A DNA stretch of 35,479 nucleotides from a virus. Taxonomy: Duplodnaviria; Caudoviricetes. A model generated the notes under the pieces. That model saw nothing but the letters and a program-made list of their open reading frames with translations, was not told the origin of the DNA and searched no databases. The position numbers and the translations under genes are program-made. Location: positions 1 through 35,479 of the IMG/VR virus record IMGVR_UViG_3300046508_000033; one strand, 5' to 3'. Below are positions 8,285 to 35,479 of the stretch, piece after piece (position 1 is the first letter of the stretch; every line of letters starts with the position of its first letter).

Positions 8285-9106
8285 TTAATCCTCCGTTAAG
8301 ATGCGGGTACCATCTTCGTTTAACAAATTCGAGCCATCTTCTGAGAGTATGTCGGCGCTGCTAGGAGCCGGGGGAGAAGATCCTGTGTCGCCCTCCATCA
8401 AGACGCGCGTGCCATCTTCGTTCAACAAATTCGCGCCATCTTCCAAGAGTATGCCAGCACTGTCAGGAGCCGGGGGACCCGGGGGAGGCAACGAAGATCC
8501 GCCGGTATCCCCCCGAACCTGTGCGAGGGTGACCTTTTGTCCGGTGGCATAAACCTGGGCCTCAAGATCCAGCTCCAGAGAATCCTCCTTAAATTTGACC
8601 CGGTAATAAAAATAGAAAGAGGCGCTCACCACCACACCAGAGGCGGGTGCGGTGACAAAGGTAACGATCCCGGAATTAGAATAGGCAATCGAGTAAGCCG
8701 TGGTGGCCTGTAAAAACCCGTTCAGGTAAATCTTGGGCGCGGGGGTCTGCTGAATATCATTCCGGGCCTCGATAAAGAGCCCACCCTGGCTGCGGTTAAG
8801 CTGAAAGACTGTGTTGGTGCCATTCCCCAATCCGAGCGCCGCACCCAAGGCATAATTATCCACCTGGTCCACGAATAGGAAGGTATCGAAACTGCCTCCC
8901 CTGGCATTGTAGAAACCCCAGAAGGTAGTTAGATCCGTGGCGTTCAGCATCCCAAAAGGGAGGTCCCATTCATACATGGGCGCAGACCAAAGTCCCACCC
9001 GGACCTCCCGGCCGCTCTCGGCTTGATTGGCCAGGGTATTCCAGGAGGCCCGTTTGGTGATGGGCCAGGTGATGCCCTTAAAGGTGGGGAAAAGGCTATC
9101 GCTCAT
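8285..9106 (-). CDS. DUF2460 family distal tail protein with duplicated acidic C-terminal extension
   Basis: SGREVRVGLW, FYNARGGSFDTFLF, LGLGNGTNTVFQL, FVTAPASGVVVSASFYFYYRVKF. Position between tape measure and DUF2163. Confidence 0.88.
   Translation of the reverse strand: MSDSLFPTFKGITWPITKRASWNTLANQAESGREVRVGLWSAPMYEWDLPFGMLNATDLTTFWGFYNARGGSFDTFLFVDQVDNYALGAALGLGNGTNTVFQLNRSQGGLFIEARNDIQQTPAPKIYLNGFLQATTAYSIAYSNSGIVTFVTAPASGVVVSASFYFYYRVKFKEDSLELDLEAQVYATGQKVTLAQVRGDTGGSSLPPPGPPAPDSAGILLEDGANLLNEDGTRVLMEGDTGSSPPAPSSADILSEDGSNLLNEDGTRILTED
8288..8512 (-). repeat. Imperfect tandem duplication (2 copies) encoding GDTG..PPAP.SA.IL.EDG.NLLNEDGTR.L.E
   Basis: Visible in the protein and in DNA (ccatcttcgtt.aacaaattcg.gccatcttc occurs twice). 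Confidence 0.85.
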
Positions 9107-18119: not shown

Positions 18120-19403
18120 TCAGCCTTTGATTTCGGCATACCAGATCGTCTCGCACACCCGGAAGTTATCACCGAAGGCCTCCTTGACCGCCCGGACCAC
18201 GCCTGAGAACTGATTTTCTGAATAGTCGTGGCCAGCGATCAGCTTTTTAGTCTTGGGGAGCCACGCCGCGATATCGGCCTTGACCGCCTCATAAACATGA
18301 TCGCCGTCGATGAAGACCATATCTACCGAGGCATCCGGGAAGGCCCGGGCTGCCCGTTCCGAATAGGTTTCCATCACCGCCAAATTATCGAAGGCCCCGA
18401 CATTCTCAAAAAAGGACTGCCGCAGATTGGCCGCAGCCTCTTCCGATCCGATAAAGGCCGGGTCCCGTGGGTCGATGGAATAGACCAGGCCAGGACAGGC
18501 GCAGAGCAGGGCATGGGTACTGCGGCCAGCGAAGGAGCCCACCTCGACAACGGATCTAATTTGCTTGGCCGTCTCATAAAGCCAGCGCAGCTCGCCCACG
18601 GCCATCATGCCCATGGTATTGACGAAGCCGGGATAGGGCAGTGCCCCGAGGGGCAATGGCTCTTCGATGATCTGCTGGAATAGAGCATTGCTCTCGACCG
18701 CCTGGGCCTTCTTCAATTCCGGGTCCTGCTGGAGCACGGCCCCCGGGTGCATGTGCCAGGTCACCGCGTTCGGATTGAAATGGAAACGGTGCCCGATGGA
18801 GGCCAGGCGCCGGCCGAGTTCACTGTCCTCGTGCCCATAGCCCACGAATCGCTCGTCGAATCCGATACTGCCATCCTTGGCCGGGGTCCGGGCCGCCGAT
18901 ATCGACATGCAGACATTGCCGGTCTGGAAATGATGGAAATCGCCGTTCACTTTCCCCTGCATCCAAATGGTCATCAGCCCGGGTTCAATCGGAACCGGCA
19001 GGCCCAGGGCCAGGTAAGATTCGGAATCGGACTTATAGCCCACCTGAACTTCCTGGGGGTTGAACTCCCTCAGGTAGGACTCGATAAGTTGCGGGTGCGG
19101 CAGGCAATCATCGTCCAGCATGATCAGGACGTCGCCGGCCGCATTGCGGATACCCATATTCTTGGCCTGGGCCGCGGTGTTCTTATCCTTATTCCCGGTG
19201 TCGTACCATTTCAGGGAATAGCGGGGGTTCTTCTTGCGCGTGGCCAGCATCTTCTGGGTGCCGTCGGTCGAGCCATCGACGCAGACAATGACCTCGAAAG
19301 GCTCACGGTAAGTCTGCTCCAGGAGTAGGCCCAGATGCCGCTTCAAGGCGTCCTTGCGATTCCAGGTCAGGATCAGGTAGGTTAGGCGCATTGCTTTCCC
19401 CAA
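18120..19403 (-). CDS. GT2 glycosyltransferase fused to class I SAM methyltransferase (Methyltransf_24-like)
   Basis: VIVCVDGSTDGT, LDDDC and FDERFVGYGHEDSEL (GT-A fold), then VVEVGSFAGRS, DMVFIDGDHVYEAV and IAGHDY. Confidence 0.9.
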   Translation of the reverse strand: MGKAMRLTYLILTWNRKDALKRHLGLLLEQTYREPFEVIVCVDGSTDGTQKMLATRKKNPRYSLKWYDTGNKDKNTAAQAKNMGIRNAAGDVLIMLDDDCLPHPQLIESYLREFNPQEVQVGYKSDSESYLALGLPVPIEPGLMTIWMQGKVNGDFHHFQTGNVCMSISAARTPAKDGSIGFDERFVGYGHEDSELGRRLASIGHRFHFNPNAVTWHMHPGAVLQQDPELKKAQAVESNALFQQIIEEPLPLGALPYPGFVNTMGMMAVGELRWLYETAKQIRSVVEVGSFAGRSTHALLCACPGLVYSIDPRDPAFIGSEEAAANLRQSFFENVGAFDNLAVMETYSERAARAFPDASVDMVFIDGDHVYEAVKADIAAWLPKTKKLIAGHDYSENQFSGVVRAVKEAFGDNFRVCETIWYAEIKG

Positions 19404-21517
19404 TAAATCTCCGCATGGGTCCGAAACTCAAAATTAGGATTTTCTCTCAGGTTCATCTCGATCACCATCGCCTGAAGGCCGGTTTTCCAGAGCGAGTAAG
19501 CATAGGAAATTTGATCAGAACTGGTCCCGGCACAGATCTCTTGCCACCACATCTCCATGGCCGCCTTGACCGCCGGATCGTGGTGGCGCCGGAAGAGGAT
19601 GCCGCATTCGTACAACCCCGACTTGGCAGGCAACCCGGCTTTCTCACAGCGATGAATGGTCTTCTGGATCAGGTCCTGGTGATCCTTTTGCTCCTGGATG
19701 ACCAGTTGAGCCTCTTCATAGGGGCAATTTCGCCGCGGGTGCCGGTGCATGGCCAAGCCGTGGCCGTTCAAAGACTGCACCGCGGCCTTGGCGACCTGGG
19801 GACCGGGAGTAATATTGGCGTCAACCCAGATACTGATATCATGGTCCGGAAAATAGGTGTGTGGCAGGGCCTTGGGGTGCTTGGCGGTGCGCACGGCCTC
19901 CTGGTGGCTCCAGGTGAAGGGCCGGATTTCCCAGACCTTCGACTCAAGGGGTTGGTCAGTAAAGCAGACATAATCGACCCCAGGAATGGGCACCGGATCA
20001 ACCAAGGTGTCCCGACCGGCCCCGGCGATGGCGGTATAGATCACCGTGCGGTTTCGGGAGATGATGTTCAGGTAAATATCAGGGTCATCACACCATTCCC
20101 GGAATTTCTTCAAATCAGAATCGACCTGAAAGAGGCGGCGTTCATGGGCGCACCCCGCACCGGCCCGCCCCGGCAAACCTTTGATGGCACAATGCAGGCG
20201 CCGGTCGGCCCCGGGTAGCAGGAAGCCGCGGCCCTGATTGTGATTCCACCATAGGCGCAGATCCACGGAACAGTCAGGCAGTTTGCCGTCCCCCGGGATG
20301 GCCTCGAACACATCGGGGATCAAGGATTTGCGGAAGCCGGTCTGCGATAGGGAGGCGTGGTCCTCGCGGCCCATATCCTTCCAGCCTGGCACCCCGGGGT
20401 GATAGCATTTGGTCCCCCAGATACCCGCCAGTTCGTGAACGTCCAGGAGACCCGCCAGCGTCTCGATATACTCCGGCCCATACCAATCATCATCTTCCAT
20501 GACGATCACCTTGTCATGGGCCACCAGAGCCAGCGCCGCGGCCAAATTCTTTCCCAGGGTGCAGGGCGGATCGTCGGCTTGGGGCTCGCGCCGGATCACC
20601 GTGGCGCCGGGGAAGCGCGCCGCATCTACCGGCACCTGGCCATCATCCACGATCAACCATTGGTCGGGTTGCCGGATCTGCCGGGACACCCATCGCCGCA
20701 GCAGGGCCAGGGCCTCGGGGCGGTCGCCGGTCGGGGTGATCACGGTCACCTTATCCTCACGGGGTTCGGGAATCATGCCGAACTCAAAGCATTTGAGGCC
20801 GGAATCGGGATTGAGATTGATCACCCGGATACCTTTTCCCTTGAGAATGGGAGCCGCTTCCTCGAACTCTTCCCGGAAGTTGTTATAAATCTCATCCCGC
20901 TGCCGCACCGGATAGCCATCATGGAAATTTTTCTGCCACTGGCCGCTGGTCTGGAGGTCAAAGCCGATCAGGTAAATCGGATTGGCACCCAGACAAATTG
21001 CCAGGTTAAGAGCTGCAAAGCCTGAATGAGATCCTGAGAAAATCCCCTGAGCGATGGAGTTGCTGACTTCGCGGCCGAAGAGCCGGGGGACTTTCTCCAC
21101 CTCGTTGCCGAAATCATAACTGTGGCTCTCCACCCATACCTTGAGAGCTTGGGAATCCTTGAATCTTTGCGTCGGTCCGGAGCCCAGAGATCCATCGCAA
21201 AGCCATTTATAAAGCCTGCTGTCTATGCCGAAGATGATGGTCGGGTCGAAAAGTTCAAAGGCCCGGTTGATACCGATCACCAGTTCGCCCTGGAGCCGGG
21301 AGAAATCCCAATCGGCCAAGCTGGGACCGCCGCCCAGGATGAAGCAACGACGGCCCCGCCAAGCCCCATCTTTGAGACGCAGGGAAACTTCTTTGATCGG
21401 TTCCAGCTTGTGGCCTTGGCCAGCCAGAATCTCCGGAGAAGGCTCGAAAACCTCCCCCGGCTGGATCATCTGGCGGCCATCGTGGACCACATAGCCTTTG
21501 CGGACCCGGCAGATCAT
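19382..21517 (-). CDS. Multidomain glycosyltransferase: short N-terminal domain + DUF115/Maf-like + GT2-like + DUF616-like
   Basis: CFILGGGPSL...SGFAALNLAICLGANPIYLIGFD; VITPTGDR...LIVDDG...MEDDDWY; VIYTAI...YVCFTD...SIWVDAN...HPRRNCPYEE...DQIS. Confidence 0.82.
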   Translation of the reverse strand: MICRVRKGYVVHDGRQMIQPGEVFEPSPEILAGQGHKLEPIKEVSLRLKDGAWRGRRCFILGGGPSLADWDFSRLQGELVIGINRAFELFDPTIIFGIDSRLYKWLCDGSLGSGPTQRFKDSQALKVWVESHSYDFGNEVEKVPRLFGREVSNSIAQGIFSGSHSGFAALNLAICLGANPIYLIGFDLQTSGQWQKNFHDGYPVRQRDEIYNNFREEFEEAAPILKGKGIRVINLNPDSGLKCFEFGMIPEPREDKVTVITPTGDRPEALALLRRWVSRQIRQPDQWLIVDDGQVPVDAARFPGATVIRREPQADDPPCTLGKNLAAALALVAHDKVIVMEDDDWYGPEYIETLAGLLDVHELAGIWGTKCYHPGVPGWKDMGREDHASLSQTGFRKSLIPDVFEAIPGDGKLPDCSVDLRLWWNHNQGRGFLLPGADRRLHCAIKGLPGRAGAGCAHERRLFQVDSDLKKFREWCDDPDIYLNIISRNRTVIYTAIAGAGRDTLVDPVPIPGVDYVCFTDQPLESKVWEIRPFTWSHQEAVRTAKHPKALPHTYFPDHDISIWVDANITPGPQVAKAAVQSLNGHGLAMHRHPRRNCPYEEAQLVIQEQKDHQDLIQKTIHRCEKAGLPAKSGLYECGILFRRHHDPAVKAAMEMWWQEICAGTSSDQISYAYSLWKTGLQAMVIEMNLRENPNFEFRTHAEIYWGKQCA

Positions 21518-21994: not shown

Positions 21995-23260
21995 TTAGTT
22001 GGCGGCGGCGATCCGCGCATCGGAGCACAGGGCGAAGGAGGCGGCGTGGCGCACTGCCACATCGACTTCCATGATGATCCGAATCCAGGTCTGGTCCGCG
22101 GCGAAGGCAGTGCCGGCCACATCGGAGGCCTGGATACGCAGACCGGCCCATTGACCGATCAAGAGTTCCTGCCAGTTGCCGAAGTAAATCTCGGTGCAGT
22201 TGGTGGAGGAACTTTTGACCAAGTTGGTCGGGATCTGCGTGGTGGTGGCGAAGGGATAGCCCATCGCCGCTTCCAGGGCCTGGTCGGTCATAAAACTGGA
22301 CTGAGTCAGGGCCGTGAGGAAGCCGATCAGGGGCTGCGTGCCGGTATCCCCGGAGAACTGCGGGATTTTGAGCTGCTTCAGGTTTTTCTTGAGGACCGGG
22401 TTGAAGGCGAATCCGAGCTTACCACGCAGGGCATTGGCCGCGGCGAGTTGGTACTCCAGTTCGGTGAACACGTCCAGATTGCTGACCACCGCGCCGGTAG
22501 CCCCGAAGGCATAGGTACCGATGCCGGGGGTGTTAGCGATACCCAGGGGCTGATTGCTGGAGCCGGGGCCGCGCAGGGCCGCATAATCGACCGCTAAGGC
22601 CATCTGAAGACCGATATCCTGATTGACCAGGGCCTCGGCTTCCGGAATGGACATGCGGATCAGGGAGTTGGAGAGCTGTACCAGGGCCATGGCCTTGTGC
22701 GGGGTCAAGGAAAGCTGCCCGAAGGTCAAGGAACTGGGATCAACAGCGACATTGTCTCCGATCCAGTAAACCGTGGCACCCCCGGTCTGTTTGGGGAAGG
22801 TCACTGGATTGCCCTGGAGGTTGGGGATAACCCGGGCACCGAGCTTGGTGCAGACGGGTTCGGAGCGCAGGTACTCCACCAGCTCCGGCACGGCCTGGGC
22901 CGGGACCAGATAACCGCCGGCAGTATCGTTGGTATAGCCGAGCGCCTTCTTGGAGGCCTCTTTCATTACCGACTCTTCATAGCCGGCCTGGGAGAAGTCC
23001 CGGGTCTGAATTGCATGGAGGGCCTTGAACATCGAAAACTTTTCTTTGCCCTCGCTCACGCCGGGCATGTCAGCCCACTTGCGGGACTGGACTTTGCTCT
23101 CGATTTCCTTGAAGCGAACTTCCATTTCCGCATACTTGACCTGGAGTTCCGGGAACATTTTGAAGGCCTCGAGGACGGTAATGGGCTTGTCGTCGCCCCC
23201 TTTCACCGTCTCGGCCAGTTTCGCCTGAATATCTGCCAGCATTTCCTTGATTTTGTCCAT
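21995..23260 (-). CDS. Major capsid protein, HK97 fold
   Basis: N-terminal coiled-coil delta domain, AGGYLVP, DYAALRGPG...PLGI, IYFGNWQ, and DVAVRHAASF. Confidence 0.95.
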   Translation of the reverse strand: MDKIKEMLADIQAKLAETVKGGDDKPITVLEAFKMFPELQVKYAEMEVRFKEIESKVQSRKWADMPGVSEGKEKFSMFKALHAIQTRDFSQAGYEESVMKEASKKALGYTNDTAGGYLVPAQAVPELVEYLRSEPVCTKLGARVIPNLQGNPVTFPKQTGGATVYWIGDNVAVDPSSLTFGQLSLTPHKAMALVQLSNSLIRMSIPEAEALVNQDIGLQMALAVDYAALRGPGSSNQPLGIANTPGIGTYAFGATGAVVSNLDVFTELEYQLAAANALRGKLGFAFNPVLKKNLKQLKIPQFSGDTGTQPLIGFLTALTQSSFMTDQALEAAMGYPFATTTQIPTNLVKSSSTNCTEIYFGNWQELLIGQWAGLRIQASDVAGTAFAADQTWIRIIMEVDVAVRHAASFALCSDARIAAAN

Positions 23261-24309: not shown

Positions 24310-24571
24310 GAGTTGCTTCCTCCTTTTCGTAAACCGGGGCCTGCCTGATGATCGGCCCAGAGGTTTCTTGTCCCCGGGGGGCAAACCGAAAGACGAATTG
24401 CTTGGTTTCAGGGTCAACCCCATATTTTTGCAGGCGATAATCCGCGGGGATTCCGCCCTCTTTTAACAAGATCGTATAGCCGTTCTTCGTGACGATGGCG
24501 GCCCCGACTCGAAAGAGCATTCCCAAAACATCGGGGGGCACCTGGATTTCGATTCTGGGGCGGTCGACCAT
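24287..24571 (-). CDS. Hypothetical protein
   Basis: 94 aa with a TAATG overlap to the portal stop. Overlaps the protease start. Confidence 0.6.
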   Translation of the reverse strand: MVDRPRIEIQVPPDVLGMLFRVGAAIVTKNGYTILLKEGGIPADYRLQKYGVDPETKQFVFRFAPRGQETSGPIIRQAPVYEKEEATHGQKPSA

Positions 24572-26682
24572 TAGTCTTTCTCCACCACGGGGGCCGCTAC
24601 GCAGCGGCAGTTAATCACCTCTTCCGGATCGCCCCCGGGGTCGCTGGGATAGGCCAGCCCATTGCTGAAGGTGTCGCCCCGGTCCACGATCTCGCCGTCC
24701 ATCACCGCATGAATTTCCCGGACTACATCGTCGCCAGCCGTGGTCCATTCCTGGCGCTCGATACCCAGCATGTCCATGGCGGCGTCGCGGGCGGGAGCTG
24801 CAGCCTGTCCGGTCTCAGTCCGGGCGATGGTCAATGAACGGGATTCGGAAAAGTTATATACTTCACGAACCCGGTCCTGTAGCTCGGCCACCGTCTCCAG
24901 GTCAGCCATGCCCTCGGCCAAAGTGTCCCGCAGGTTCTCCCGGGTGACCTCGTTAATGTCCACCACCTTGATCAGCTTATCTTTGAGAACGTCGATTGCT
25001 GGCGTGTCGGCAAGGATAAACTGCTCCGGGTTGGCGCCGAGTTCGGTGACCAGGATTTTCCCGGCCTCGTTCCCCACGTTGTTCCAGAACTGCCAGGAGA
25101 TTTTCTTGAGGCTGTCATTCCAGGCATTGCTATCGAAAAGCAATTTATCCGCCTCGTCACTGGAGGCGCGCACCTGGGCGATTGCCTTACCCCAATGCTG
25201 CTCAATCAGCCGCAGTTGCTCCTTGCGTTGCTCATAGAAATAGCGTTTCATGCGCGGCTGGAACTTGCGCTCCATGACCGACTGAAATTTGTGGTACTGT
25301 TGCCAGTAGGTGCGGCGGTCGAGTTTACGGCGGATGAGGATCTGGCCCTTCTTGGGTTTCTCTCCTTCGGCAGGCGCTGAGGCTGGTGCGGGGGCAGGAA
25401 CCGCCGGTGCAGGCGCTGGGGTCGGTTCGGGAGGATTGAGAATATTCTCTATGGGCGAAAGGTTGAACGGCAGATAGCCGGTCTCGCCGCCCTCGATAGC
25501 TTCAAACCCCAACCCCAGAGTCTCGTTGATGTTGTTGAATGGAACGCCCATGGCAAAGAGCTTCTGGGCCGATCCAAGGAGGGTGTCGAAATCTTCCCGC
25601 AGGGCGTCGATGGCGGTGCGGTCGAACTCCATATAGAAATCACCGCCGGGCAGGAAATAGAGGAACTTGTTGTAGAGAGCATCCTCAATCGTCTTCATCA
25701 CCGGGATCAAGGTCTTAGTCCAGAACACCCGGTCCATGGTCTGCGAGGTGGCCTTATTGATATTTTCATACAAGGAGAGTTCGGTTTTGGCGACCTTGAA
25801 GATGGCCATGATCTCTTCCCGGTTGTATTTCCGCATCTCCAGGAAGTCCATGTCCTTCTGGCTAATGCCGATCTGCTTGTATTCCAGACCGCCTTCCAGC
25901 AGAGCGATAAAGTGAGCCTTGTCCACGCCCTCATGCTTGCTCCGCCATTGGCTGCGGATGCGCCAGAACTCATCTTCGTCGAGCGGGTCCTTGGCCTGGA
26001 GCACTCCCCCCGGCGTGGCATCATTCTTGAAAAAATTGGCATTGTATTGGGCGGCGCTCACGTCCTGCAGGATACTCAACTGAGCCACGGCGAGGGGTGA
26101 CAGGCCCCGGTAATCGTCATAAGGGCTGAAGTCGCGGAAGAAGATAATCTCATGCGCATCAAAGGGTATCTTCTTGTCACCCACCTGATAAACCCAGCCG
26201 ATGATCAGACCGGATTGTTTGTCGGCAACGTGTTTAAACCGGCCCGGATTGAAGGTCCATAATTCCTTGGGAATATCCTGCTGAGTTTCGCGCTCGGCCA
26301 GGATGAAAACTTCTCCGCAGAGCTTGTAATAGGTAGTGATGGCCTGGATAAATTCGGAACAGGACATGGCAGGGTTGGGGCGATCAAATAGGCGGGTAAT
26401 GTCGGTGTTGGCCAGGAGTTTCTGGTCTTTGGGGGGGCCGATGAAAAAGCGCATGGGGATCGTCTTGATATTTTGGGCGATGGCGGCGATGCAGGCGTAG
26501 ACCCAGACGTGCTGTGCATAGGGTTGGGTTACGGAGTTTCCAGCCATGCCAGCCAAGAGACTCGGGGCGGTGAGGAACATCTGCGTGGCCATCGGATTGA
26601 CCACGACGCCGGAAGCATCCCGAAGGACAGGGAAGATAGAACGCAGACGATTGAATGCCCGAGACAGCAATCCACTTGCCAT
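24571..26682 (-). CDS. HK97-family portal protein fused to MuF/SPP1 gp7-like minor head domain
   Basis: VWVYACIAAIA, RPNPAM, RGLSPL, FFKNDATPGGVL, DMDFLEMRK (portal). Pro/Ala linker. IARTET...EWTTAGDDVVREIH...INCRC (MuF). Confidence 0.93.
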   Translation of the reverse strand: MASGLLSRAFNRLRSIFPVLRDASGVVVNPMATQMFLTAPSLLAGMAGNSVTQPYAQHVWVYACIAAIAQNIKTIPMRFFIGPPKDQKLLANTDITRLFDRPNPAMSCSEFIQAITTYYKLCGEVFILAERETQQDIPKELWTFNPGRFKHVADKQSGLIIGWVYQVGDKKIPFDAHEIIFFRDFSPYDDYRGLSPLAVAQLSILQDVSAAQYNANFFKNDATPGGVLQAKDPLDEDEFWRIRSQWRSKHEGVDKAHFIALLEGGLEYKQIGISQKDMDFLEMRKYNREEIMAIFKVAKTELSLYENINKATSQTMDRVFWTKTLIPVMKTIEDALYNKFLYFLPGGDFYMEFDRTAIDALREDFDTLLGSAQKLFAMGVPFNNINETLGLGFEAIEGGETGYLPFNLSPIENILNPPEPTPAPAPAVPAPAPASAPAEGEKPKKGQILIRRKLDRRTYWQQYHKFQSVMERKFQPRMKRYFYEQRKEQLRLIEQHWGKAIAQVRASSDEADKLLFDSNAWNDSLKKISWQFWNNVGNEAGKILVTELGANPEQFILADTPAIDVLKDKLIKVVDINEVTRENLRDTLAEGMADLETVAELQDRVREVYNFSESRSLTIARTETGQAAAPARDAAMDMLGIERQEWTTAGDDVVREIHAVMDGEIVDRGDTFSNGLAYPSDPGGDPEEVINCRCVAAPVVEKD

Positions 26683-26717
26683 AGGGACATTATTAGGGAG
26701 TATTGATTACTTGTCAA
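26683..26717 (-). promoter_or_regulatory. Sigma70-like promoter, predicted +1 at or near the portal ATG
   Basis: TTGACA (26717-26712), 17-nt spacer, AATAAT (26694-26689), 6 nt, then ATG. No Shine-Dalgarno sequence. Confidence 0.6.
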
Positions 26718-26773
26718 TTCCCACTACTATAGGTCAAATGTAGGGTCGGTAGTAATAATTACTGAAAAAGGAC

Positions 26774-26810
26774 AAAAAAAGAGCCCCCAGTCCGCGAGGA
26801 TCTGGGGGCT
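26774..26810 (-). terminator. Rho-independent terminator ending the early region
   Basis: AGCCCCCAG-a-TCC-tcgc-GGA-CTGGGGGCT followed by CTTTTTTT. Confidence 0.9.
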
Positions 26811-26830
26811 GAGTTATGATCATGGAATAC

Positions 26831-27022
26831 TTAGTTACATATCACAAACCTATGTGGATCACCGAATGCTTCTGCGCTGGGCCTCAATTCACCTTCGTGT
26901 ATCATCAATTCATCTTCGCTTAAGTGGTAGTCTCTCCCTACCCCGACATTAATGTAGACTGGCAAGTCGCCGTGTTCTTTGATGGCCTTTTTCAAGACCT
27001 TGATCAGTTCCGATGCTTTCAT
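26831..27022 (-). CDS. Hypothetical phage protein
   Basis: MKASELIKVLKKAIKEHGDLPV, a common small phage ORF type. RBS-like GGGGG and 4-nt overlap with the upstream gene. Confidence 0.7.
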   Translation of the reverse strand: MKASELIKVLKKAIKEHGDLPVYINVGVGRDYHLSEDELMIHEGELRPSAEAFGDPHRFVICN

Positions 27023-27243
27023 AATCGCAATCCCCCTTCATCCAGGGCCTGGATGCCGCGTCTGTAAAAATTGCTCCACCGGGTAGCCTTATCGGGGAAC
27101 GTAAAAACTCCAGTTGAATAATCAAATTCAAAATCCCAGACCGGATCGCCATCTTCCCAGACTCGGCAATGCCTTTTCTCTGTCATCGGATAGGGGTATC
27201 TTACCGAAAATCCTATCTTCGCGTGTACCATAATCCCCTCCAT
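27019..27243 (-). CDS. Hypothetical protein
   Basis: 74-aa ORF in operon orientation with a purine-rich RBS. Confidence 0.55.
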   Translation of the reverse strand: MEGIMVHAKIGFSVRYPYPMTEKRHCRVWEDGDPVWDFEFDYSTGVFTFPDKATRWSNFYRRGIQALDEGGLRL

Positions 27244-27328
27244 ACCACAATTCCCTTCCTCGGTAAAGACCGGAACCCCCGAAGGAGCCCCGGCCTGTGG
27301 ATTTTGGAAGATTAGTTTTTCGTGGGGG

Positions 27329-27601
27329 TTACTGCACGGCCTCCTTGAGCGCGCGTTGGGCCTGGAACTTCACCGCCTTCTTGGCCGGGATATTCACCGG
27401 GCTGCCGTCCCTGGGGTTCCGTCCGGTCCGCGCTGCCCGCTTCGAGATGGAGAACTTGCCGAAGCCGGCCAGGGTGACATCTTCGCCCCGGACCAGTGCT
27501 TCCTCGATACTCACCAGAAAGGTGTCCAGCAATTTCCACGTAAGGGACTTGCTTTCCTTCACTCCTTCGGCCACCTTCGCGGTCAATTCTGCTTTAGTCA
27601 T
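27329..27601 (-). CDS. hup: HU/IHF family DNA-binding protein
   Basis: MTKAEL...VTLAGFGKFSISKRAARTGRNPRDGSPVNIPAKKAVKF. Confidence 0.96.
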   Translation of the reverse strand: MTKAELTAKVAEGVKESKSLTWKLLDTFLVSIEEALVRGEDVTLAGFGKFSISKRAARTGRNPRDGSPVNIPAKKAVKFQAQRALKEAVQ

Positions 27602-27663
27602 AAATCCCTCCTATCTGAAATACCGCGACTCGCCGCCGCGGGTGGTGCGCGTTAGTTACTTAC

Positions 27664-28011
27664 TTATGGCCTCCATGATGGCTTGGTTGATGGCCTGTTG
27701 CCCCTTTTCCCCTGATTGGCCGCTGCCTGGATGCGGTCGGCTGCAAAAAAGGGGACTTGAGCATCATAGCAAGTTACTAAAAACGCCCCGCACTCTCCCT
27801 GATTCGCAGGATATTGAACAACACCCATTCCTTTTTCACCAACAGGCACCCACCTCCACCATTCTTTCCTGATATATTTAGTGTGGACTTCAATATCAGG
27901 TTGTAAGGCGCTCAAATTTTCGGCAAATTCAATGGGGTCATGGTCGCCCTTTGCAAAAAAATAAAGAGTTCCGTGACCCTCAAGTTCCCTTAATTCTCGG
28001 ATGACCATCAT
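27664..28011 (-). CDS. Hypothetical phage protein
   Basis: 115 aa, RBS AAGGAG, AT-richer than its flanks. Confidence 0.65.
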   Translation of the reverse strand: MMVIRELRELEGHGTLYFFAKGDHDPIEFAENLSALQPDIEVHTKYIRKEWWRWVPVGEKGMGVVQYPANQGECGAFLVTCYDAQVPFFAADRIQAAANQGKRGNRPSTKPSWRP

Positions 28012-28051
28012 CCCACATTCTCCTTTAATCCATGGGCTGGTGAAACATATT

Positions 28052-29869
28052 TCACGCCGCCTCCCTCGCCCTTACCGGGCTGATCACCCCGTCCTGAATC
28101 CACCACACCGCAAGTTCCGGGATAGGTGAGGGGTCGGCATGGTCACTGGTGGCGAACACCAAAATAGTGTCGAAATCCTTGTGCACTGCCAGGAGAAAGT
28201 CTATCAGTTGGCTCCGATTCAGGGGATCGAGGATGTCAGCCTCGTCGACGAGGAACAGACGGGCGCCGGCCAGAGTAGCCAGCACATATTGAAAGCAAAT
28301 CCCTGCCCGATATCTGGCGGATTTCGATAGCAGAGAAAATGGGGTAATCCCCCGGTAGACCTCCAGATCCTGCGTCAGGTGCAAGGGCTGGTGTTCATCG
28401 CAATCCGGGAAGAGATACCCAGATCCGAACGCCAGCCTTTCGTTGACCGGCCCCAGGGCCTCTGTAATGAGTTGTGAGGGGATACCCGTGGGCGCCAGGG
28501 CTTTGGCCAAAGCATCATAAAGGACCACCTCCTTATCGGCCTCAGCCAGCTTGACGGCCGCCGCATCCGCCGCCTCTTTCTCCCGCCAGAACTTGCGCAC
28601 CGCGTCCAGGAGGTCGAGGCCTACCTGCAGCCGGAAGTCCAGGGCGGTGATCTGCTCATCTATCCCGGCGGTGACCGTGGCCTGGTCCTCTTGGGCTTTA
28701 AGTTTGGCGATCTTGTCCACCAGGGCCTGGCGGGTTTGGGTGTAGGAGTCAAAGGCGCCCTGCTTGGCCTGGGCCAGCTTGAGTCCTTCCACCAGGCGGA
28801 CAACTTCCACTTCCTGCTCCTGCAAGTCCGCCGTCACCTTCTTGACCTTCACAGGGTCCGGGGCTATGTCGCCGGACACCCCCACCTCCTTAGCCTTGGG
28901 GCAGGGCACATCGGAGCCGGAGAACACTGGGCACAGGTCTGGATAGAACCGGGGGGCCTTGCCGGGCTTCAATGCTTCAGCCTGCTTTTTCAGATCATCC
29001 AGAATCGGCCGGTTGATCTCCAGGAACTTCTCCCATTCCTCCACCTTCCCCTCTTCCTGTAGGTCTGGGCATTCGGCCTCGAGCCTTGCCAGCGCCGCCT
29101 CCAATTCCGGGAGTTTATCAGCCTGGGCCTCCATCTTGCCCCGCTTCTTCAAGAGAGTGTCCCGTTCCGTCCGGAGCACCGATAACCCTTTTTCCACATC
29201 GGGCGCCTGGATATCGGGGAGGATGAATTCCTTGTCCCCGATGGTGGCCCGGGGGGCGGGTTCATCTACCGTGGCCATGGACCGCAGACTTTTTGCAACA
29301 CGGCGCCGGGTGATGGCTTCGGTTTCGGCTGCGGCAAAACCATCCTGTTCGGCCTTCTTCGCCAGTTCATCAATAGTGTCGATAGTCGCATCCGTGGGAG
29401 TCTTTTCCGGGAGCACTTCCACCAGACTATCCACCAGGCGCATGCCGATATCTTTCCGGGTCGGATTGAGGCCAGGGATATGCTTGAACAGCACCTCCCG
29501 CCGCTCCTTGTCCGCCAGGGATAGGAAGGCAAGGGGGTCGGCCAGAATGGAAAACATGACTTGGTCGTCCGGGACCGGGCCGGTGACCGTGGCCGGGGTC
29601 TTGGGCGTCTTCTTCCGGGCGAGAACCTGCTTATCCGCCAGGGTGAGCGTTACCTCCGCGGCCTTGGCGCCATCGTGAATTAGCTGGGCCTGGGCTTCGT
29701 GCGTTTTGAGACCGCGGGCCTGGCCGGTGAGACACCACTGCACCGCGTCCCTCAGGCTGGACTTGCCGGCCTCATTCGGACCTGCAATGATGTTCACCGG
29801 GGCCTGGAGGTCCATCTCCAGGGATTCTATGGCCAGAAAATTATGGATCGTGAGCTTGTCTATTTTCAA
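28052..29869 (-). CDS. SMC/Rad50/SbcC-like ABC ATPase
   Basis: Walker A GPNEAGKS, long coiled coil with central CPVF...CP, degenerate signature LSKSAR, Walker B LFLVDEAD. Confidence 0.9.
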   Translation of the reverse strand: MKIDKLTIHNFLAIESLEMDLQAPVNIIAGPNEAGKSSLRDAVQWCLTGQARGLKTHEAQAQLIHDGAKAAEVTLTLADKQVLARKKTPKTPATVTGPVPDDQVMFSILADPLAFLSLADKERREVLFKHIPGLNPTRKDIGMRLVDSLVEVLPEKTPTDATIDTIDELAKKAEQDGFAAAETEAITRRRVAKSLRSMATVDEPAPRATIGDKEFILPDIQAPDVEKGLSVLRTERDTLLKKRGKMEAQADKLPELEAALARLEAECPDLQEEGKVEEWEKFLEINRPILDDLKKQAEALKPGKAPRFYPDLCPVFSGSDVPCPKAKEVGVSGDIAPDPVKVKKVTADLQEQEVEVVRLVEGLKLAQAKQGAFDSYTQTRQALVDKIAKLKAQEDQATVTAGIDEQITALDFRLQVGLDLLDAVRKFWREKEAADAAAVKLAEADKEVVLYDALAKALAPTGIPSQLITEALGPVNERLAFGSGYLFPDCDEHQPLHLTQDLEVYRGITPFSLLSKSARYRAGICFQYVLATLAGARLFLVDEADILDPLNRSQLIDFLLAVHKDFDTILVFATSDHADPSPIPELAVWWIQDGVISPVRAREAA

Positions 29870-30084
29870 GATAGCCTCCCTTCAAATAGGCACCGGATAC
29901 CATTCCTTACTGCCTGGCGGTAAAAATAGTATGGCTCGACAAGCCATAGAAATTCCATGACCGACTCATAAGCCGCCTTGGCTGCTGCTGGGGCTGCTGC
30001 CGAGATGACCCAGGGACCGACTTCGAAGTTTGCCAAGCTCTTATACATCTTTTTGCTTTGTTCTGGAGATTCTCCGATTGTCAT
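29866..30084 (-). CDS. Hypothetical protein
   Basis: Strong RBS TAAGGAGG. Overlaps the ATPase start by 4 nt. Confidence 0.6.
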   Translation of the reverse strand: MTIGESPEQSKKMYKSLANFEVGPWVISAAAPAAAKAAYESVMEFLWLVEPYYFYRQAVRNGIRCLFEGRLS

Positions 30085-30100
30085 AAAAAGTCCTCCTTAC

Positions 30101-30129
30101 AAAATAGGGGGCCGGATTAGTGGCCCCCT
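30101..30129 (-). terminator. GC hairpin closing the array (terminator or processing stem)
   Basis: AGGGGGCC-actaatcc-GGCCCCCT followed by ATTTT. Confidence 0.65.
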
Positions 30130-30134
30130 TCCTT

Positions 30135-30344
30135 GCTCCATGCCTGGCCTTGCCTTGCCGTGCAGTGCCTCGCCTGGCCTCGTTCCTTGCCGTGCCATGC
30201 CGTGCCGCGGTCCGAGCCTTGCCCCGCCCCGCCGCGCCAAGCCGGTCCATGTTCCAGGCCTTGCCTCGCCAGGCCACGCCGTGCCGCGCCCCGCCATGTT
30301 CCCCGCCCCGCCTCGCCACGCCAGACCGCGCCTTGCCGCGGGCC
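30135..30344 (-). repeat. GGC-NN pentamer array: five units separated by GG(A/C)NC punctuation
   Basis: Hand parse gives 39 variable dinucleotides, 34 internal triplets (31 GGC, 1 GGT, 1 GGA, 1 TGC) and 6 separators (GGCCC, GGAAC, GGAAC, GGACC, GGAAC, GGAGC), accounting for exactly 210 nt. Confidence 0.95.
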
Positions 30345-30349
30345 TTGAC

Positions 30350-30817
30350 TTACGTTTCCTTCACCGGGTCCGCATAAGTAAGTTGCTGGGCCGCGGTAGC
30401 CGCCGCCAATTTCAGTTGCGCCCCCAAATTCTGGAAATGGTCACAGACCCTTACTTCTTCCGGGGCCAAGCCGGTTCTGTCTGTCCTTGCAGCAACGAGA
30501 GAGGCCCTATCGACCTTGCTTAAGCCGCTATCAAATAGGGCGACGGAATGAGTAACCCGTTTATGAGAATCCAGAAACTCAAATCCTTCGTCACGGACAG
30601 CCTTGGTTACAAGGTTGTTTTCCTTGAAGAGTTTCGCTCGCCAGGAGTTCGTGACTGTCCAGAACCGAGGTTCCTTGCGCTGATTCCCGAGACAAGCCGT
30701 AATATCCGCGTAGGAAATGAAGTCCCCCGGTTTAGGGACGCCAAATTTTTCCTGTAATCGCTGGACATCAATATCCGTAGGAAGGCCACCGACACCGATT
30801 TTAACGCCGGTATCCAT
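30350..30817 (-). CDS. Hypothetical protein, probable accessory of the RAMP/array locus
   Basis: ATG 1 nt after the RAMP-like stop. Its own stop lies 5 nt before the array. Confidence 0.8.
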   Translation of the reverse strand: MDTGVKIGVGGLPTDIDVQRLQEKFGVPKPGDFISYADITACLGNQRKEPRFWTVTNSWRAKLFKENNLVTKAVRDEGFEFLDSHKRVTHSVALFDSGLSKVDRASLVAARTDRTGLAPEEVRVCDHFQNLGAQLKLAAATAAQQLTYADPVKET

Positions 30818-30818
30818 G

Positions 30819-31487
30819 CTACACCGCCTTTATGGTGGCCGTGAACTTACCCCATGGCCCCGGTGACTTCGGGGAAGACGGCCGCCAGTCACCCATGCCC
30901 GCATAGTTCCCGGCAAAGGTCAGGATGTTTTTCAGAACGTCCCTGGTAATCATTTCATCAAATACGGTGATGGTCCCTTTGCAGGACCATTGATCGAAAC
31001 GGGGCCGGACGCGCACATGCTTTGCTTGGCCGATCTTGGCGCGCTTCACAAACAAACTGAACCCTAATTCCTGCGCCTGTAGTTCGTGGAGGGCGAAATC
31101 CGGCTCCTCAATTAGAGCCTTTATGGGAGCATAAGGGACCTCTGCGCCATCCTTTACGGTCAACGTCCAGGCACTTTGGTCCACCACAAGCCCACTCTGG
31201 GTTTGGGCCTTGAAGGTTTTTTTACCGTTGCCGGTAGGACAACGAGTGCCGCCCTCACGAAGCACGGTCATAAGGTTATCTGAGGGGATTACGACACGCC
31301 CCTGTTCGACGTAGAGATTACCAATCCACCGCCAGGCAGGGGACCGATCATCGCCTTTGACAGAGATTTTTTGGTTTGCCGGGTCGAGTTCCCATTTTTT
31401 CATAACTTCGGCCCAGGAAAGGTTGTCGTGATGCATCAACAAAGGGGTTTCTCCAGTGAGTTCGACTGCGTAAGTGCTGTGATTCAT
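30819..31487 (-). CDS. Stand-alone RAMP/Cas7-like RNA-binding protein (222 aa)
   Basis: YAVELTGETPLLMH (RRM beta1), VVIPSDNLMTVLREG (cf. IPGSSLKG.LR), VRVRPRF, and C-terminal Gly-rich loop AGNYAGMGDWRP...GPWGKF. True start is ATG 31487 with an AAGGAGG RBS, not 31742. Confidence 0.75.
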   Translation of the reverse strand: MNHSTYAVELTGETPLLMHHDNLSWAEVMKKWELDPANQKISVKGDDRSPAWRWIGNLYVEQGRVVIPSDNLMTVLREGGTRCPTGNGKKTFKAQTQSGLVVDQSAWTLTVKDGAEVPYAPIKALIEEPDFALHELQAQELGFSLFVKRAKIGQAKHVRVRPRFDQWSCKGTITVFDEMITRDVLKNILTFAGNYAGMGDWRPSSPKSPGPWGKFTATIKAV

Positions 31488-31488
31488 G

Positions 31489-32631
31489 TCATGCCTCCTT
31501 ACCCTGTTTATGAAACCCAACCTTCTCAACTTCCTTACTCGCCGCCCCGGCCAGAATCTCCCCCAGCAGGTCCTGACGCTTAAGTTTCTTGAGGCCGCGC
31601 TCAAGGGCCGTTTTGGTAGTCGAGAGCACATTCCACATTTGGTCCTTTTCCAGACCCTGGTCCATGAGATATAAGGCGATCTCCTTGGGGTCAAGGTCGT
31701 ATGAGGTTGATAAACTGGGGCCATAGCACATATCTCCGACAATCACCGGCCCGTTCTCCTTAACCCATGCCTTGAGCCGATCCTTGAGGGCCTTCTCCAT
31801 CTCGGTTATCGCCAGGAGGATACCGGCCGCCTTGGTTGCCTGTTCCCGGGTCGCCGGGGCCATGACTTCGACGGGCACGAGGGCCTGGGACATGGTGGGG
31901 CAAAATGACTGCACCCCACACATTCCGCAGTAACTCCCGGGCCGTGGATCAAAATGCTTCTCGCCTTCGATGATGGCGATCTTGGCCTCCAGTTCCTGAG
32001 GCACGGTGTCGAGATCTTCCGGCAGGAGCAAGATTTCCCGCTCGGCGCCATAGCGGAGAAAGTGTAGGCGTAACAGGACCTCTTCGGCGTCGGGGTAGAG
32101 GGATTTGCGCACGGCCCAGCCGTATATCCTCAACTGAAGGGGGATATGATCCGGGTCGATGTTGATGATTGCCCGGTTGGTCTTAAAATCAATGACCACG
32201 GCCAACCCGCCCTGCAGGAAAGTGAAGTCGGCAATTGCCCTGAAAAAAGCATCGGCCGCAAACCAGTCCACCGTCTGCCAGGCTCGGTTAAAGGCCAGTC
32301 GCTTTTCGATGCCCGGCTTTTCGATAGGCGGGAGTACGAAGTTTTCAAAGAACTGGGTGAAAATCTCGGCCACGTCCGGATGAGTGGAAGGCGTGAGCAG
32401 GCCCCCAGCCCAATCCCAATCTGTCACCTGGCCGGTATTCACCAGGCGAGAGAGATAGTCGCCGGCCAACTTGTGAGTGTCCCTGCCGATGATCAGGGGT
32501 TCACTGTCCGCCCGCGGTATCTTTTCGATACGGACCTTTTTGAACGCGTGGGGGCAACCACCATGGACCTCCCCGCCAAAATACATCTCCAACGCGGACC
32601 ATGAATAGGCCGGGGGTTTCTTGCTTGCCAT
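31489..32631 (-). CDS. PD-(D/E)XK nuclease, Cas4/AddB-like with four Cys (putative Fe-S)
   Basis: YSWSAL...CP, G...H, E...AIAD...VIDFKT, QLRIY, and CGMCGVQSFC. Confidence 0.88.
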   Translation of the reverse strand: MASKKPPAYSWSALEMYFGGEVHGGCPHAFKKVRIEKIPRADSEPLIIGRDTHKLAGDYLSRLVNTGQVTDWDWAGGLLTPSTHPDVAEIFTQFFENFVLPPIEKPGIEKRLAFNRAWQTVDWFAADAFFRAIADFTFLQGGLAVVIDFKTNRAIINIDPDHIPLQLRIYGWAVRKSLYPDAEEVLLRLHFLRYGAEREILLLPEDLDTVPQELEAKIAIIEGEKHFDPRPGSYCGMCGVQSFCPTMSQALVPVEVMAPATREQATKAAGILLAITEMEKALKDRLKAWVKENGPVIVGDMCYGPSLSTSYDLDPKEIALYLMDQGLEKDQMWNVLSTTKTALERGLKKLKRQDLLGEILAGAASKEVEKVGFHKQGKEA

Positions 32632-34831: not shown

Positions 34832-35005
34832 TTAGGCCTTCCCTCTCGTGGTGCTGTTTTTCCTACGTTCATCTTCCAAACATTGCTCCAACCACTTGAT
34901 CTTGCTGTTTTCCAGATATTCCATGCCGCCCTTGAGCTGGAGAATCTCGGCTTCGAGTTCCTGGATGCGGCGGTTGGCTTCTTCCACATCGTTGTAGAAG
35001 GTCAT
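34832..35005 (-). CDS. Small coiled-coil protein (57 aa)
   Basis: [27 protein letters not shown]..., with an ATGA overlap to the pentapeptide gene stop. Confidence 0.6.
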
Positions 35006-35479
35006 GGTCGCACGACCTTAACCAGGGCCATGATCGGGGCCTTATGGATATTCCACCAGGCCAAGGCCCGCCTCTCCATCGTCGAGATTTGCTTGTCGTC
35101 AAAGGATTCCCATTCCTCGAAAGTATGGAGTTCACAGCCGATTTTAAGATGCGTATCAAAAATAAAAATCGGCCATGTTAATCCTGAAATTTGTATTGGC
35201 GGCTTGGTTAAGGGGATACCTTCGCCATATGAAGCGCCCCGCAGGTAAGCGCCCTCCAGGTTAGCGCCCCGCAGGTAAGCGCCCTCCAGGTTAGCGCCCT
35301 CCAGGTTAGCGTCCTCCAGGTTAGCGCCCTCCAGGTTAGCGCCCCGCAGGTAAGCGTCCTCCAGGTTAGCGCCCCCCAGGTTAGCGTCCTCCAGGTTAGC
35401 GTCCTCCAGGTTAGCGTCCTCCAGGTTAGCGCCCCGCAGGTAAGCGCCCTCCAGGTTAGCGCCCTCCAGGTTAGCGCCC
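35002..35479 (-). CDS. Pentapeptide-repeat protein (5' partial)
   Basis: (A-N/Y-L-E/R-G/D)n, then [42 protein letters not shown]...ALAWWNIHK...RP stop. Start lies outside the window. Confidence 0.92.
35233..35479. repeat. 15-bp coding tandem repeat, 16 full copies plus a partial
   Basis: agcgYccYScaggtW units, encoding the pentapeptides on the minus strand. Confidence 0.95.

What the first reader, a model, noticed from the sequence alone, without database searches (positions are those of the whole stretch)
30135..30344. The array splits into five guide-like units whose NN strings read like codon positions 1-2
Seen (minus strand): 5-nt separators break the register into five units. U1 30339-30298: GC AA GC CT GT GA GG GG. 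U2 30297-30251: AT GG GC AC GT CT GA AA CT. U3 30250-30209: AT CC TT GC GG GG AA TC. U4 30208-30182: GC AC AT AC AA. U5 30181-30135: GA CA GA AC AC AA AA CA AT. Four of the five hold 8-9 dinucleotides. None of the 39 is TA or TG, and 31 of 39 start with a purine. Inference: if every third target base is skipped, they read as plausible peptides, e.g. U2 (I/M)GATVL(D/E)(K/N)L and U1 A(K/N)ALV(D/E)GG. That would mean targeting coding DNA while ignoring the wobble base, so synonymous changes would not allow escape. This is a post hoc pattern and could instead reflect a structural bias.
Basis: partly seen in the sequence, partly recalled or inferred. Interest (0 to 1): 0.85.

Follow-up and report, generated by a model that had tools for sequence, protein, structure and literature searches.

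The report
Phage VIPR guides aimed at kin

Summary
Five in-phase GGY-NN runs (8, 9, 8, 5 and 9 NN) are bounded by six GGAAC-like pentamers. They follow a 222-aa gene whose product matches SUSP1 Vipr (PDB 36pp, E 3.3e-9; RAMP fold) and a winged-helix-like partner gene, and a terminator closes the locus. It is a phage VIPR system, and the 1-nt-skip, wobble-phase code is published (bioRxiv 10.64898/2026.04.26.720920).

Unit 2 passes the proposed test. In 77 loci chosen only for likeness to the phage's own capsid, it has 18 sites with 2 or fewer mismatches at a 1-nt gap. All 18 are in frame in capsid genes. Gaps 0, 2 and 3 give none, and shuffles average 0.03. Prophages in six contigs of one bacterial class match 17/18; the phage's own capsid matches 12/18.

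Unit 1 may read the portal of the same prophages (14/16) or a prohead protease; this is unresolved. Units 3-5 have no supported target. The same 7-nt junction recurs in 31 of 101 sequences (window plus 100 related loci), so the units are real modules, but RNA ends are untested. Verdict: a new member of a known system, modest interest.

The parts
30819..31487 (-). vipr gene, 222 aa RAMP (Cas7-like) protein
   Evidence: Only PDB sequence hit is 36pp_D 'SUSP1 Vipr protein' (E 3.3e-9 single sequence; 2.5e-12 profile). AF2 pLDDT 93. Top fold hits are CRISPR type VII and Csm/Cmr RAMP subunits (best Z 10.0, rmsd 2.9, 133 aligned). SUSP1 H17/R138/D177/W178/R179 align to H19/R161/D200/W201/R202, kept in 117-118 of 118 homologs.
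30350..30817 (-). candidate vap accessory gene, 155 aa, predicted winged-helix-like domain plus helical hairpin
   Evidence: Homolog near vipr in 77 of 100 related loci. AF2 pLDDT 89. Weak matches to winged-helix DNA-binding domains (no Foldseek E below 0.001; best Z 7.5, rmsd 2.8, 68 aligned).
30340..30344 (-). leading boundary pentamer (GGCCC)
   Evidence: Sequence; same position relative to the first NN as the GGAAC junctions.
30303..30339 (-). U1, 8 NN; candidate targets: portal of the U2-matching prophages (14/16) or prohead protease (16/16 in unrelated-looking phages)
   Evidence: unresolved.
30298..30302 (-). junction GGAAC
   Evidence: 93 of 126 distinct 7-nt junctions in related arrays are GGAAC.
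30256..30297 (-). U2, 9 NN; predicted target is the HK97-type major capsid gene of related phages and prophages, sense reading, skip on codon position 3
30251..30255 (-). junction GGAAC
30214..30250 (-). U3, 8 NN, one degenerate scaffold (GGA); no supported target
30209..30213 (-). junction GGACC
30187..30208 (-). U4, 5 NN; too short (10 bases) to assign a target; perhaps a truncated unit
   Evidence: 9 of 112 junction-bounded units counted in the window and related loci have 5 NN or fewer.
30182..30186 (-). junction GGAAC
30140..30181 (-). U5, 9 NN, one degenerate scaffold (TGC); no supported target
30135..30139 (-). closing boundary pentamer (GGAGC)
   Evidence: many related arrays also end in a junction-like pentamer.
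30098..30129 (-). intrinsic-terminator-like hairpin and T run closing the locus
   Evidence: 8-pair stem, 7 G-C, followed by a T run; the main stem of the centroid fold. A consensus match, function not tested.
22817..22843 (-). the phage's own capsid codons at the position homologous to the U2 target (LGARVIPNL), 12 of 18 read bases match
25888..25911 (-). the phage's own portal codons at the position homologous to the candidate U1 site (FIALLEGG), 12 of 16 read bases match

Best explanation
The array lies in a phage locus with a Vipr-family gene and a partner gene, and likely encodes several VIPR guide RNAs, of which U2 is predicted to direct silencing of the major capsid gene of related temperate phages sharing the host. 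Shown: the locus anatomy, the protein family, the recurrence of the junction, and the U2 sequence match with its gap size and codon phase. Taken from published work on SUSP1 and P. fulva VIPR, not tested here: one Vipr protomer binds each pentamer, holds the GGY away and presents NN, which pair with DNA while one target base is skipped, giving transcriptional repression. Inferred: the array is transcribed with or after vipr-vap up to the terminator. Each GGAAC-type junction breaks the 5-nt phase by 2 nt, so one filament cannot run across it, and it likely marks the guide end, by cutting or by capping. The phage escapes its own guide because its capsid differs at 6 of 18 read bases. U1 probably adds a second hit on a head-assembly gene (portal or prohead protease).
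For: Vipr identity. Arrays beside 98 of 101 sequences (window plus 100 Vipr-relative loci, middle of the output cut).

U2 exact, viral contigs: 7 of 8 hits are in-frame PF05065 capsids, 4 distinct below 90% identity, 28-45% identical to the window's capsid.
Unbiased set (77 of 80 loci chosen by capsid likeness; 3 contigs already found by U2 left out; 1.64 Mb both strands): 18 sites at 2 or fewer mismatches and 9 at 1, at gap 1; 0 at gaps 0, 2 and 3; 100 order-shuffles mean 0.03, max 2.
Family mean 13.4/18 against a shuffle maximum of 11.9, 0 of 60. 23 of 119 capsid homologs can reach 17/18 or more.
In 83 genomes of the class of G014, 6 of the 7 one-mismatch sites are prophage capsids.
No self target: best matches in the window at gap 1 are 13/16 (U1), 13/18 (U2), 11/16 (U3) and 13/18 (U5).

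Junctions: 126 distinct in 31 of 101 sequences. Junction-bounded units mostly hold 8-12 NN, and units of one locus are more alike in register (239/1983 = 0.121) than shifted (0.071-0.090).
Against: No contig was found with an exact U2 site and a second unit at 2 or fewer mismatches, so the actual target element was not identified. Exact U2 hits in metagenome contigs are capsids in only 7 of 36 cases, and only 1 of 6 one-mismatch sites in 401 genomes of the wider phylum is a capsid. U2 also matches a conserved host gene at 16/18: 34 of 58 listed sites read like the one identified as queC, and one 17/18 site lies in a squalene-hopene cyclase gene. So convergence on a conserved gene can arise without targeting, or marks host off-targets. 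U1, U3, U4 and U5 show no enrichment over shuffles, and U1, U3 and U5 none over backward controls in the 83 genomes (14 vs 18, 6 vs 4, 5 vs 4). The units (5-9 NN) are at or below the 9-16 repeats given for SUSP1-type vrRNAs and have no structured tail. Nothing here shows expression, processing or silencing.
Confidence: 0.82

Rival explanations
1. It is a VIPR array, but it works as one long unprocessed RNA. The junctions are only internal phase breaks or scars of unit acquisition, and each in-phase run nucleates its own filament on the same transcript.
For: No ribozyme or other Rfam family in the window. No stable structure between units (z -0.92). One terminator at the end only.
Against: The published staggered arrays are drawn as individually processed vrRNAs (legend of Fig. 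S18; the figure itself not seen). In relatives the NN before the junction is strongly biased (AA 45, GA 44, AT 14, AG 11 of 126), as a recognised end motif would be.
Confidence: 0.25
2. U1 targets the portal gene of the same prophage clade that U2 targets, so the array attacks one rival at two head genes about 2.6-2.9 kb apart.
For: Among 10 elements whose capsid matches U2 at 17/18, four have a 14/16 in-frame portal site (G428, G456, G002, L314) and two a 13/16 site (G459, G014). The summed score is reached by 3 of 200 shuffles. The window's own portal has 12/16.
Against: The elements are kin, so the sites are not independent, and 79 of 200 shuffles reach 2 mismatches in at least one element. 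None of the 73 exact viral hits was identified as a portal (62 scanned). The portal family as a whole does not beat shuffles.
Confidence: 0.4
3. U1 targets a prohead protease gene, in the helix just before the catalytic-serine motif.
For: 27 of 73 exact viral hits are prohead proteases of two Pfam families (21 S77, 6 S78; 7 and 2 distinct below 90% identity) at the same motif position. The reversed control's largest families hold at most 3 distinct sequences (36 hits).
Against: Only one control scan. The hit contigs have G+C of about 0.32-0.46 (S77) or 0.70-0.74 (S78), unlike this phage (about 0.57). 119 close homologs of the phage's own protease reach at most 9/16 at that position. None of these hit loci has a U2 site within the 2 kb flanks.
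Confidence: 0.3
4. U2 acts on a host gene (queC-like, 16/18, or squalene-hopene cyclase, 17/18) rather than on rival phages.
For: 34 of 58 listed sites in 83 genomes read like the queC site.
Against: Capsid sites match better (17-18/18) and lie in the family of the phage's own capsid. The queC-like site mismatches at the last NN, near the 3' end where SUSP1 pairing begins.
Confidence: 0.06
5. The array is not a guide at all: a short protein-coding or neutral G-rich repeat, and the codon-like look is a structural bias.
For: ORFs of 66-92 aa overlap it on both strands. Relatives' NN share the purine-first bias (0.63).
Against: A 5-nt period with fixed GGY and free NN beside a Vipr gene in 98 of 101 sequences. 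The gap-specific, phase-specific U2 match.
Confidence: 0.02

Closest known systems
VIPR systems (Vipr + vap + vrRNA), type II examples Escherichia phage SUSP1 and Pseudomonas fulva prophage; bioRxiv 10.64898/2026.04.26.720920, structures in 10.64898/2026.04.26.720927
   Same: Phage-borne two-gene locus with a stand-alone RAMP. GGY/NN repeats on the gene strand. 1-nt skip falling on the wobble base. Targets in competing phages or prophages. No self target. Functional SUSP1 residues conserved.
   Different: The Vipr is distant from SUSP1's (Felixounavirus-type homologs about 24% identical). Units are shorter (5-9 NN against 9-16), abut one another, and lack the about 40-nt structured or pseudoknot tail. 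The predicted target is the capsid gene of kin rather than satellite recombinase or lysogeny regulators.
Staggered vrRNA arrays (Fig. S18 of 10.64898/2026.04.26.720920)
   Same: [quoted passage not shown]
   Different: The legend speaks of 1-nt overlapping positions; here the phase shifts by a 2-nt insert (GGAAC-type junction). The figure could not be seen, and the string GGAAC does not occur in the supplement's text, so identity with that class is likely but not established.
Class 1 CRISPR-Cas backbone RAMPs (Cas7, Csm3, Csm4, Cmr4)
   Same: RRM core, thumb and glycine-rich loop fold; filament on a guide RNA.
   Different: No CRISPR repeat-spacer array was seen and no other cas gene was found among the 32 window proteins scanned. 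Recognition is gapped, not contiguous.

Membership tests
VIPR | Stand-alone RAMP (Vipr) with RRM core, thumb and G-loop, outside a CRISPR locus | tested here: met
   SUSP1 Vipr, the only hit; RAMP folds; H19, R161, D200, W201, R202 conserved; no cas Pfam among 32 window proteins.
VIPR | Adjacent vap accessory gene, predicted to interact with DNA | tested here: met
   155-aa neighbour found in 77 of 100 related loci; winged-helix-like model, weak structural matches only. Which of vap1-6 it is was not determined.
VIPR | Intergenic GGY/NN (YNNGG) tandem repeats with variable NN | tested here: met
   the closest relative (L001, Vipr 82% identical) has the same scaffold and junctions with entirely different NN strings.
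VIPR | Targets follow the 1-nt skip rule, skip on codon position 3 | tested here: met
   Met for U2 only (18 sites at gap 1, 0 at gaps 0, 2, 3; all in frame). Inconclusive for U1; no signal for U3-U5.
VIPR | No self-targeting at 80% or more NN match | tested here: inconclusive
   U2, U3 and U5 stay below 80% in the window; U1 has one 13/16 (81%) site, which is chance-level; U4 is too short. The contig is a partial genome.
VIPR | vrRNA is expressed, binds Vipr and silences its target | not testable with these tools
   No RNA run listed; needs bench work.
VIPR type II (SUSP1-like) | Each vrRNA ends in a conserved structured 3' tail of about 40 nt | tested here: not met
   Units abut through 5-nt pentamers; no stable fold between them.
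VIPR staggered arrays | Back-to-back vrRNAs, offset in register, processed at the boundaries | tested here: inconclusive
   Back-to-back offset units are seen, but the offset here is +2 nt against '1 nt overlapping' in the legend; figure not visible; processing untested.
VIPR ribozyme-interspersed arrays | Hammerhead ribozymes between vrRNAs | tested here: not met
   Only 5 nt lie between units; no Rfam match at gathering threshold in the window.

The most novel reading that the evidence does not exclude
A tail-less VIPR subtype, common in one part of the Vipr tree, in which a 2-nt phase-breaking GGAAC junction replaces the structured tail as the signal for guide ends and as the unit of guide gain and loss. 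This phage uses it for kin discrimination, hitting two head-assembly genes (capsid and portal) of one resident prophage clade at conserved motifs where its own copies have drifted away.
Probability: 0.25. Interest if true: 0.55.

Novelty: new member of a known kind. Interest (0 to 1): 0.3.

Why it matters
What the locus adds is a compact test case for open VIPR questions. How are tail-less, back-to-back guides cut or capped? Do guides of only 8-9 NN work? How does a phage aim at a conserved capsid motif of its relatives without silencing itself (12/18 self, 17-18/18 kin)? If the junction alone delimits guides, it would also give a very short way to multiplex VIPR guides in one transcript.

Tried and rejected
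- Self-targeting in the window at gaps 0-3: only the array itself matches fully, at gap 3.
- U3 exact in viral contigs: 15 hits, the largest group six near-identical tail-fibre genes; no convergence.
- U3 as a DNA-methylase N-terminal motif (recalled lead): no such exact hit.
- U3 against a neck-gene motif of the U2 clade: 3-5 mismatches, chance level.
- U5 exact: 4 unrelated hits.
- U3 in five named handles with 3 mismatches: background only.
- 358 guides parsed from relatives, run against the capsid loci and the window: 3, 4 and 5 guides hit at gaps 0, 1 and 2, so no enrichment.
- Six guides of the distant VIPR on G459:C40 against the window and G004: no better than shuffles.
- No RNA holder listed, so RNA ends could not be mapped.
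- No sigma-70-like promoter on the minus strand in 29900-31700; no Rfam family; no Pfam family for Vipr, only PHROG 4652 of unknown function; the ESM Atlas gave only hypothetical viral clusters for the vap.
- The careful tree did not finish; the quick tree was used.
- Vipr was not found with this query in 4 of 5 genomes holding U2-matching prophages; the genomes are incomplete, so absence is not shown.
- The bioRxiv supplements and all figures were not visible; Data S3 and S4 of the VIPR paper may already list this clade and its targets.

Full report
Setting. The window is a partial temperate-type phage genome. Portal, HK97 prohead protease, capsid and tail genes lie on the minus strand, next to a recombination block with Gp3-like, PD-(D/E)XK, SbcC-like and HU genes. 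The held genome is only this contig. All nine listed runs are peat metagenomes, two holding half the sampled words or more. Names on capsid and protease homologs include Desulfobaccales and Desulfobacca, which suggests but does not show the host.

Observation. Five in-phase GGY-NN runs of 8, 9, 8, 5 and 9 dinucleotides are bounded by six pentamers (GGCCC, GGAAC, GGAAC, GGACC, GGAAC, GGAGC). Each pentamer is the scaffold GG-C with two bases inserted, so it shifts the 5-nt phase by 2. Runs of four or more units arose 27 times in 100 shuffles of the whole window, against five such runs in 210 bp here. Contigs of three runs show the same letters where they cover the array. The composition statistics are real but weak evidence, because relatives' arrays share the purine-first bias.

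What it is. The 222-aa gene upstream (31487-30819) has one PDB sequence match, SUSP1 Vipr (E 3.3e-9; 2.5e-12 as a profile). Its model (pLDDT 93) matches CRISPR RAMP subunits. The SUSP1 residues that grip GGY (H17, R138, D177, W178, R179; paper 720927) align to residues kept in 117-118 of 118 homologs. The 155-aa gene between it and the array has homologs near vipr in 77 of 100 related loci and a winged-helix-like model with weak matches only. A terminator-like hairpin follows the array. GGY-NN arrays were found in 98 of 101 sequences: the window, the best 80 of 144 viral loci and all 20 genome loci (the middle of the output was cut). This is the VIPR anatomy.

Literature seen. 10.64898/2026.04.26.720920: whole text in six parts, without figures, plus a term search of the PMC supplement. 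[quoted passage not shown] 10.64898/2026.04.26.720927: parts 1-2 of 6. 10.64898/2026.10.15.759431: parts 1-2 of 8 and passages. 10.64898/2026.10.21.760802: passages only. Two library searches were run. GGAAC was not found in the texts searched for it, but figures and data files were not visible, so I do not claim that the junction is unpublished.

Are the separators real boundaries? The same 7-nt junction occurs 126 times in distinct contexts in 31 of 101 sequences, 93 times as GGAAC. Of 112 junction-to-junction units in 26 loci, 73 hold 8-12 NN. Units of one locus are more alike when aligned at the junction (0.121) than when shifted (0.071-0.090). On a quick tree of 85 Vipr proteins (identical, short or array-less rows left out) the junction label needs 7 changes against about 25 for shuffled labels, 0 of 500 as low. 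It is clustered but not shown to be one clade. In relatives the NN before the junction is mostly AA, GA, AT or AG; in this window it is not so biased, and U2's last NN matches its target. Exact U2 hits do not extend into U1 or U3. So the units are modules; whether the RNA is cut there is untested.

Targets: U2. Seven of 8 exact viral hits are in-frame HK97-type capsids reading MGATVLDNL. They are homologous to the window's own capsid, which reads LGARVIPNL there and matches 12 of 18. In 77 loci chosen only by capsid likeness, U2 has 18 sites at 2 or fewer mismatches at gap 1, all capsid and in frame. Gaps 0, 2 and 3 give none, and 100 shuffles average 0.03. Family-level and protein-level tests agree. 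In 83 genomes of the class of G014, which was drawn from the phylum of L009's genome, 6 of 7 one-mismatch sites are prophage capsids reading MGATLLDNL. These capsids are about 51-52% identical to the window's, and three of the prophage regions share its Gp3-like and PD-(D/E)XK genes. Against this: 29 of 36 exact metagenome hits and 5 of 6 phylum-wide one-mismatch hits are unrelated genes, and a queC-like host site matches 16/18 in 34 of 58 listed sites. The capsid remains the best reading because it matches better and emerged in a small search space fixed beforehand.

Targets: the rest. U1 has two candidates, both head genes. One is prohead proteases: 27 of 73 exact hits, 9 distinct sequences, against at most 3 distinct per family in one reversed control, but in phages of different G+C and not among the phage's close protease homologs. 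The other is the portal of the U2-matching prophages: 14/16 in four of ten elements, with the summed score reached by 3 of 200 shuffles, but the elements are kin and 79 of 200 shuffles reach two mismatches somewhere. U3, U4 and U5 gave nothing above controls. The control also shows that in-frame hits are expected for any codon-like string (32 of 36), so 'reads like a peptide' proves nothing without convergence and gap specificity.

Mechanism. By the published SUSP1 model, Vipr would polymerise one protomer per pentamer. The NN would pair with the template strand of the rival capsid gene, skipping each wobble base, and block transcription. I infer that the phase break at each junction ends a filament and marks a guide end, and that the phage is spared by divergence at the read positions. 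The closest relative with a complete record (G004, Vipr 82% identical) has the same architecture with different NN strings, as expected for programmable guides.

Verdict. A genuine VIPR locus, most like the published staggered arrays. Earlier notes of this scan describe similar loci with capsid-reading guides (unchecked, not used as support). New member of a known kind, interest 0.3.

Noticed in passing
L450 / G459:C40:about 87400-91100 (minus strand): A second, distant VIPR locus: 184-aa Vipr-like gene, a 226-aa partner that looks ParB-like by eye (not scanned), and at least six degenerate GGY-NN runs. It lies about 41 kb from the U2-matching prophage capsid on the same contig. Its guides do not match the window or G004.
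   Followed up: partly
window 24571-29869: The portal gene follows the SbcC-like/HU block through a few small ORFs, with no terminase among the window proteins scanned. In the complete relative G004 the portal directly follows the SbcC-like gene, and none of 20 long ORFs scanned hit a terminase Pfam. Shorter or divergent terminases were not looked for.
   Followed up: partly
window 18120-21517: Two glycosyltransferase family 2 genes (one with a methyltransferase domain, one with MptE-like and TOD1/MUCI70 domains) sit between capsid and neck genes; G004 has a similar pair. Possibly virion glycosylation.
   Followed up: no
window 35002-35478 (minus): Pentapeptide-repeat protein, cut by the contig end; it explains the 15-nt tandem repeat at 35233-35479.
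   Followed up: partly
window 8290-8477: A 102-nt tandem duplication (1.8 copies, 83% alike) at the 3' end of the DUF2460 gene.
   Followed up: no
runs X2 records 5 and 6 on window 30215-30337: Other GGY-NN arrays with different NN occur in a second peat run, aligning only in part: related VIPR phages in the same habitat.
   Followed up: no
L005, L006, L007, L011, L016, L020, L084 and others: The larger group of Vipr relatives ends each guide in a short GGG-led hairpin instead of a GGAAC junction, and L012 uses U-rich spacers between guides; the architectures sort on the Vipr tree.
   Followed up: partly
L336:15673-18900 (G004 portal): The relative's portal-Mu F fusion carries an intein/Hint-like C-terminal extension (weak Pfam hits) that the window's 703-aa portal lacks.
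   Followed up: no
U1 and U2, fifth NN: Both guides have GT at the fifth NN where the MGATLLDNL/AIALLEGG prophage clade mostly has CT; either a shared escape change or coincidence.
   Followed up: no
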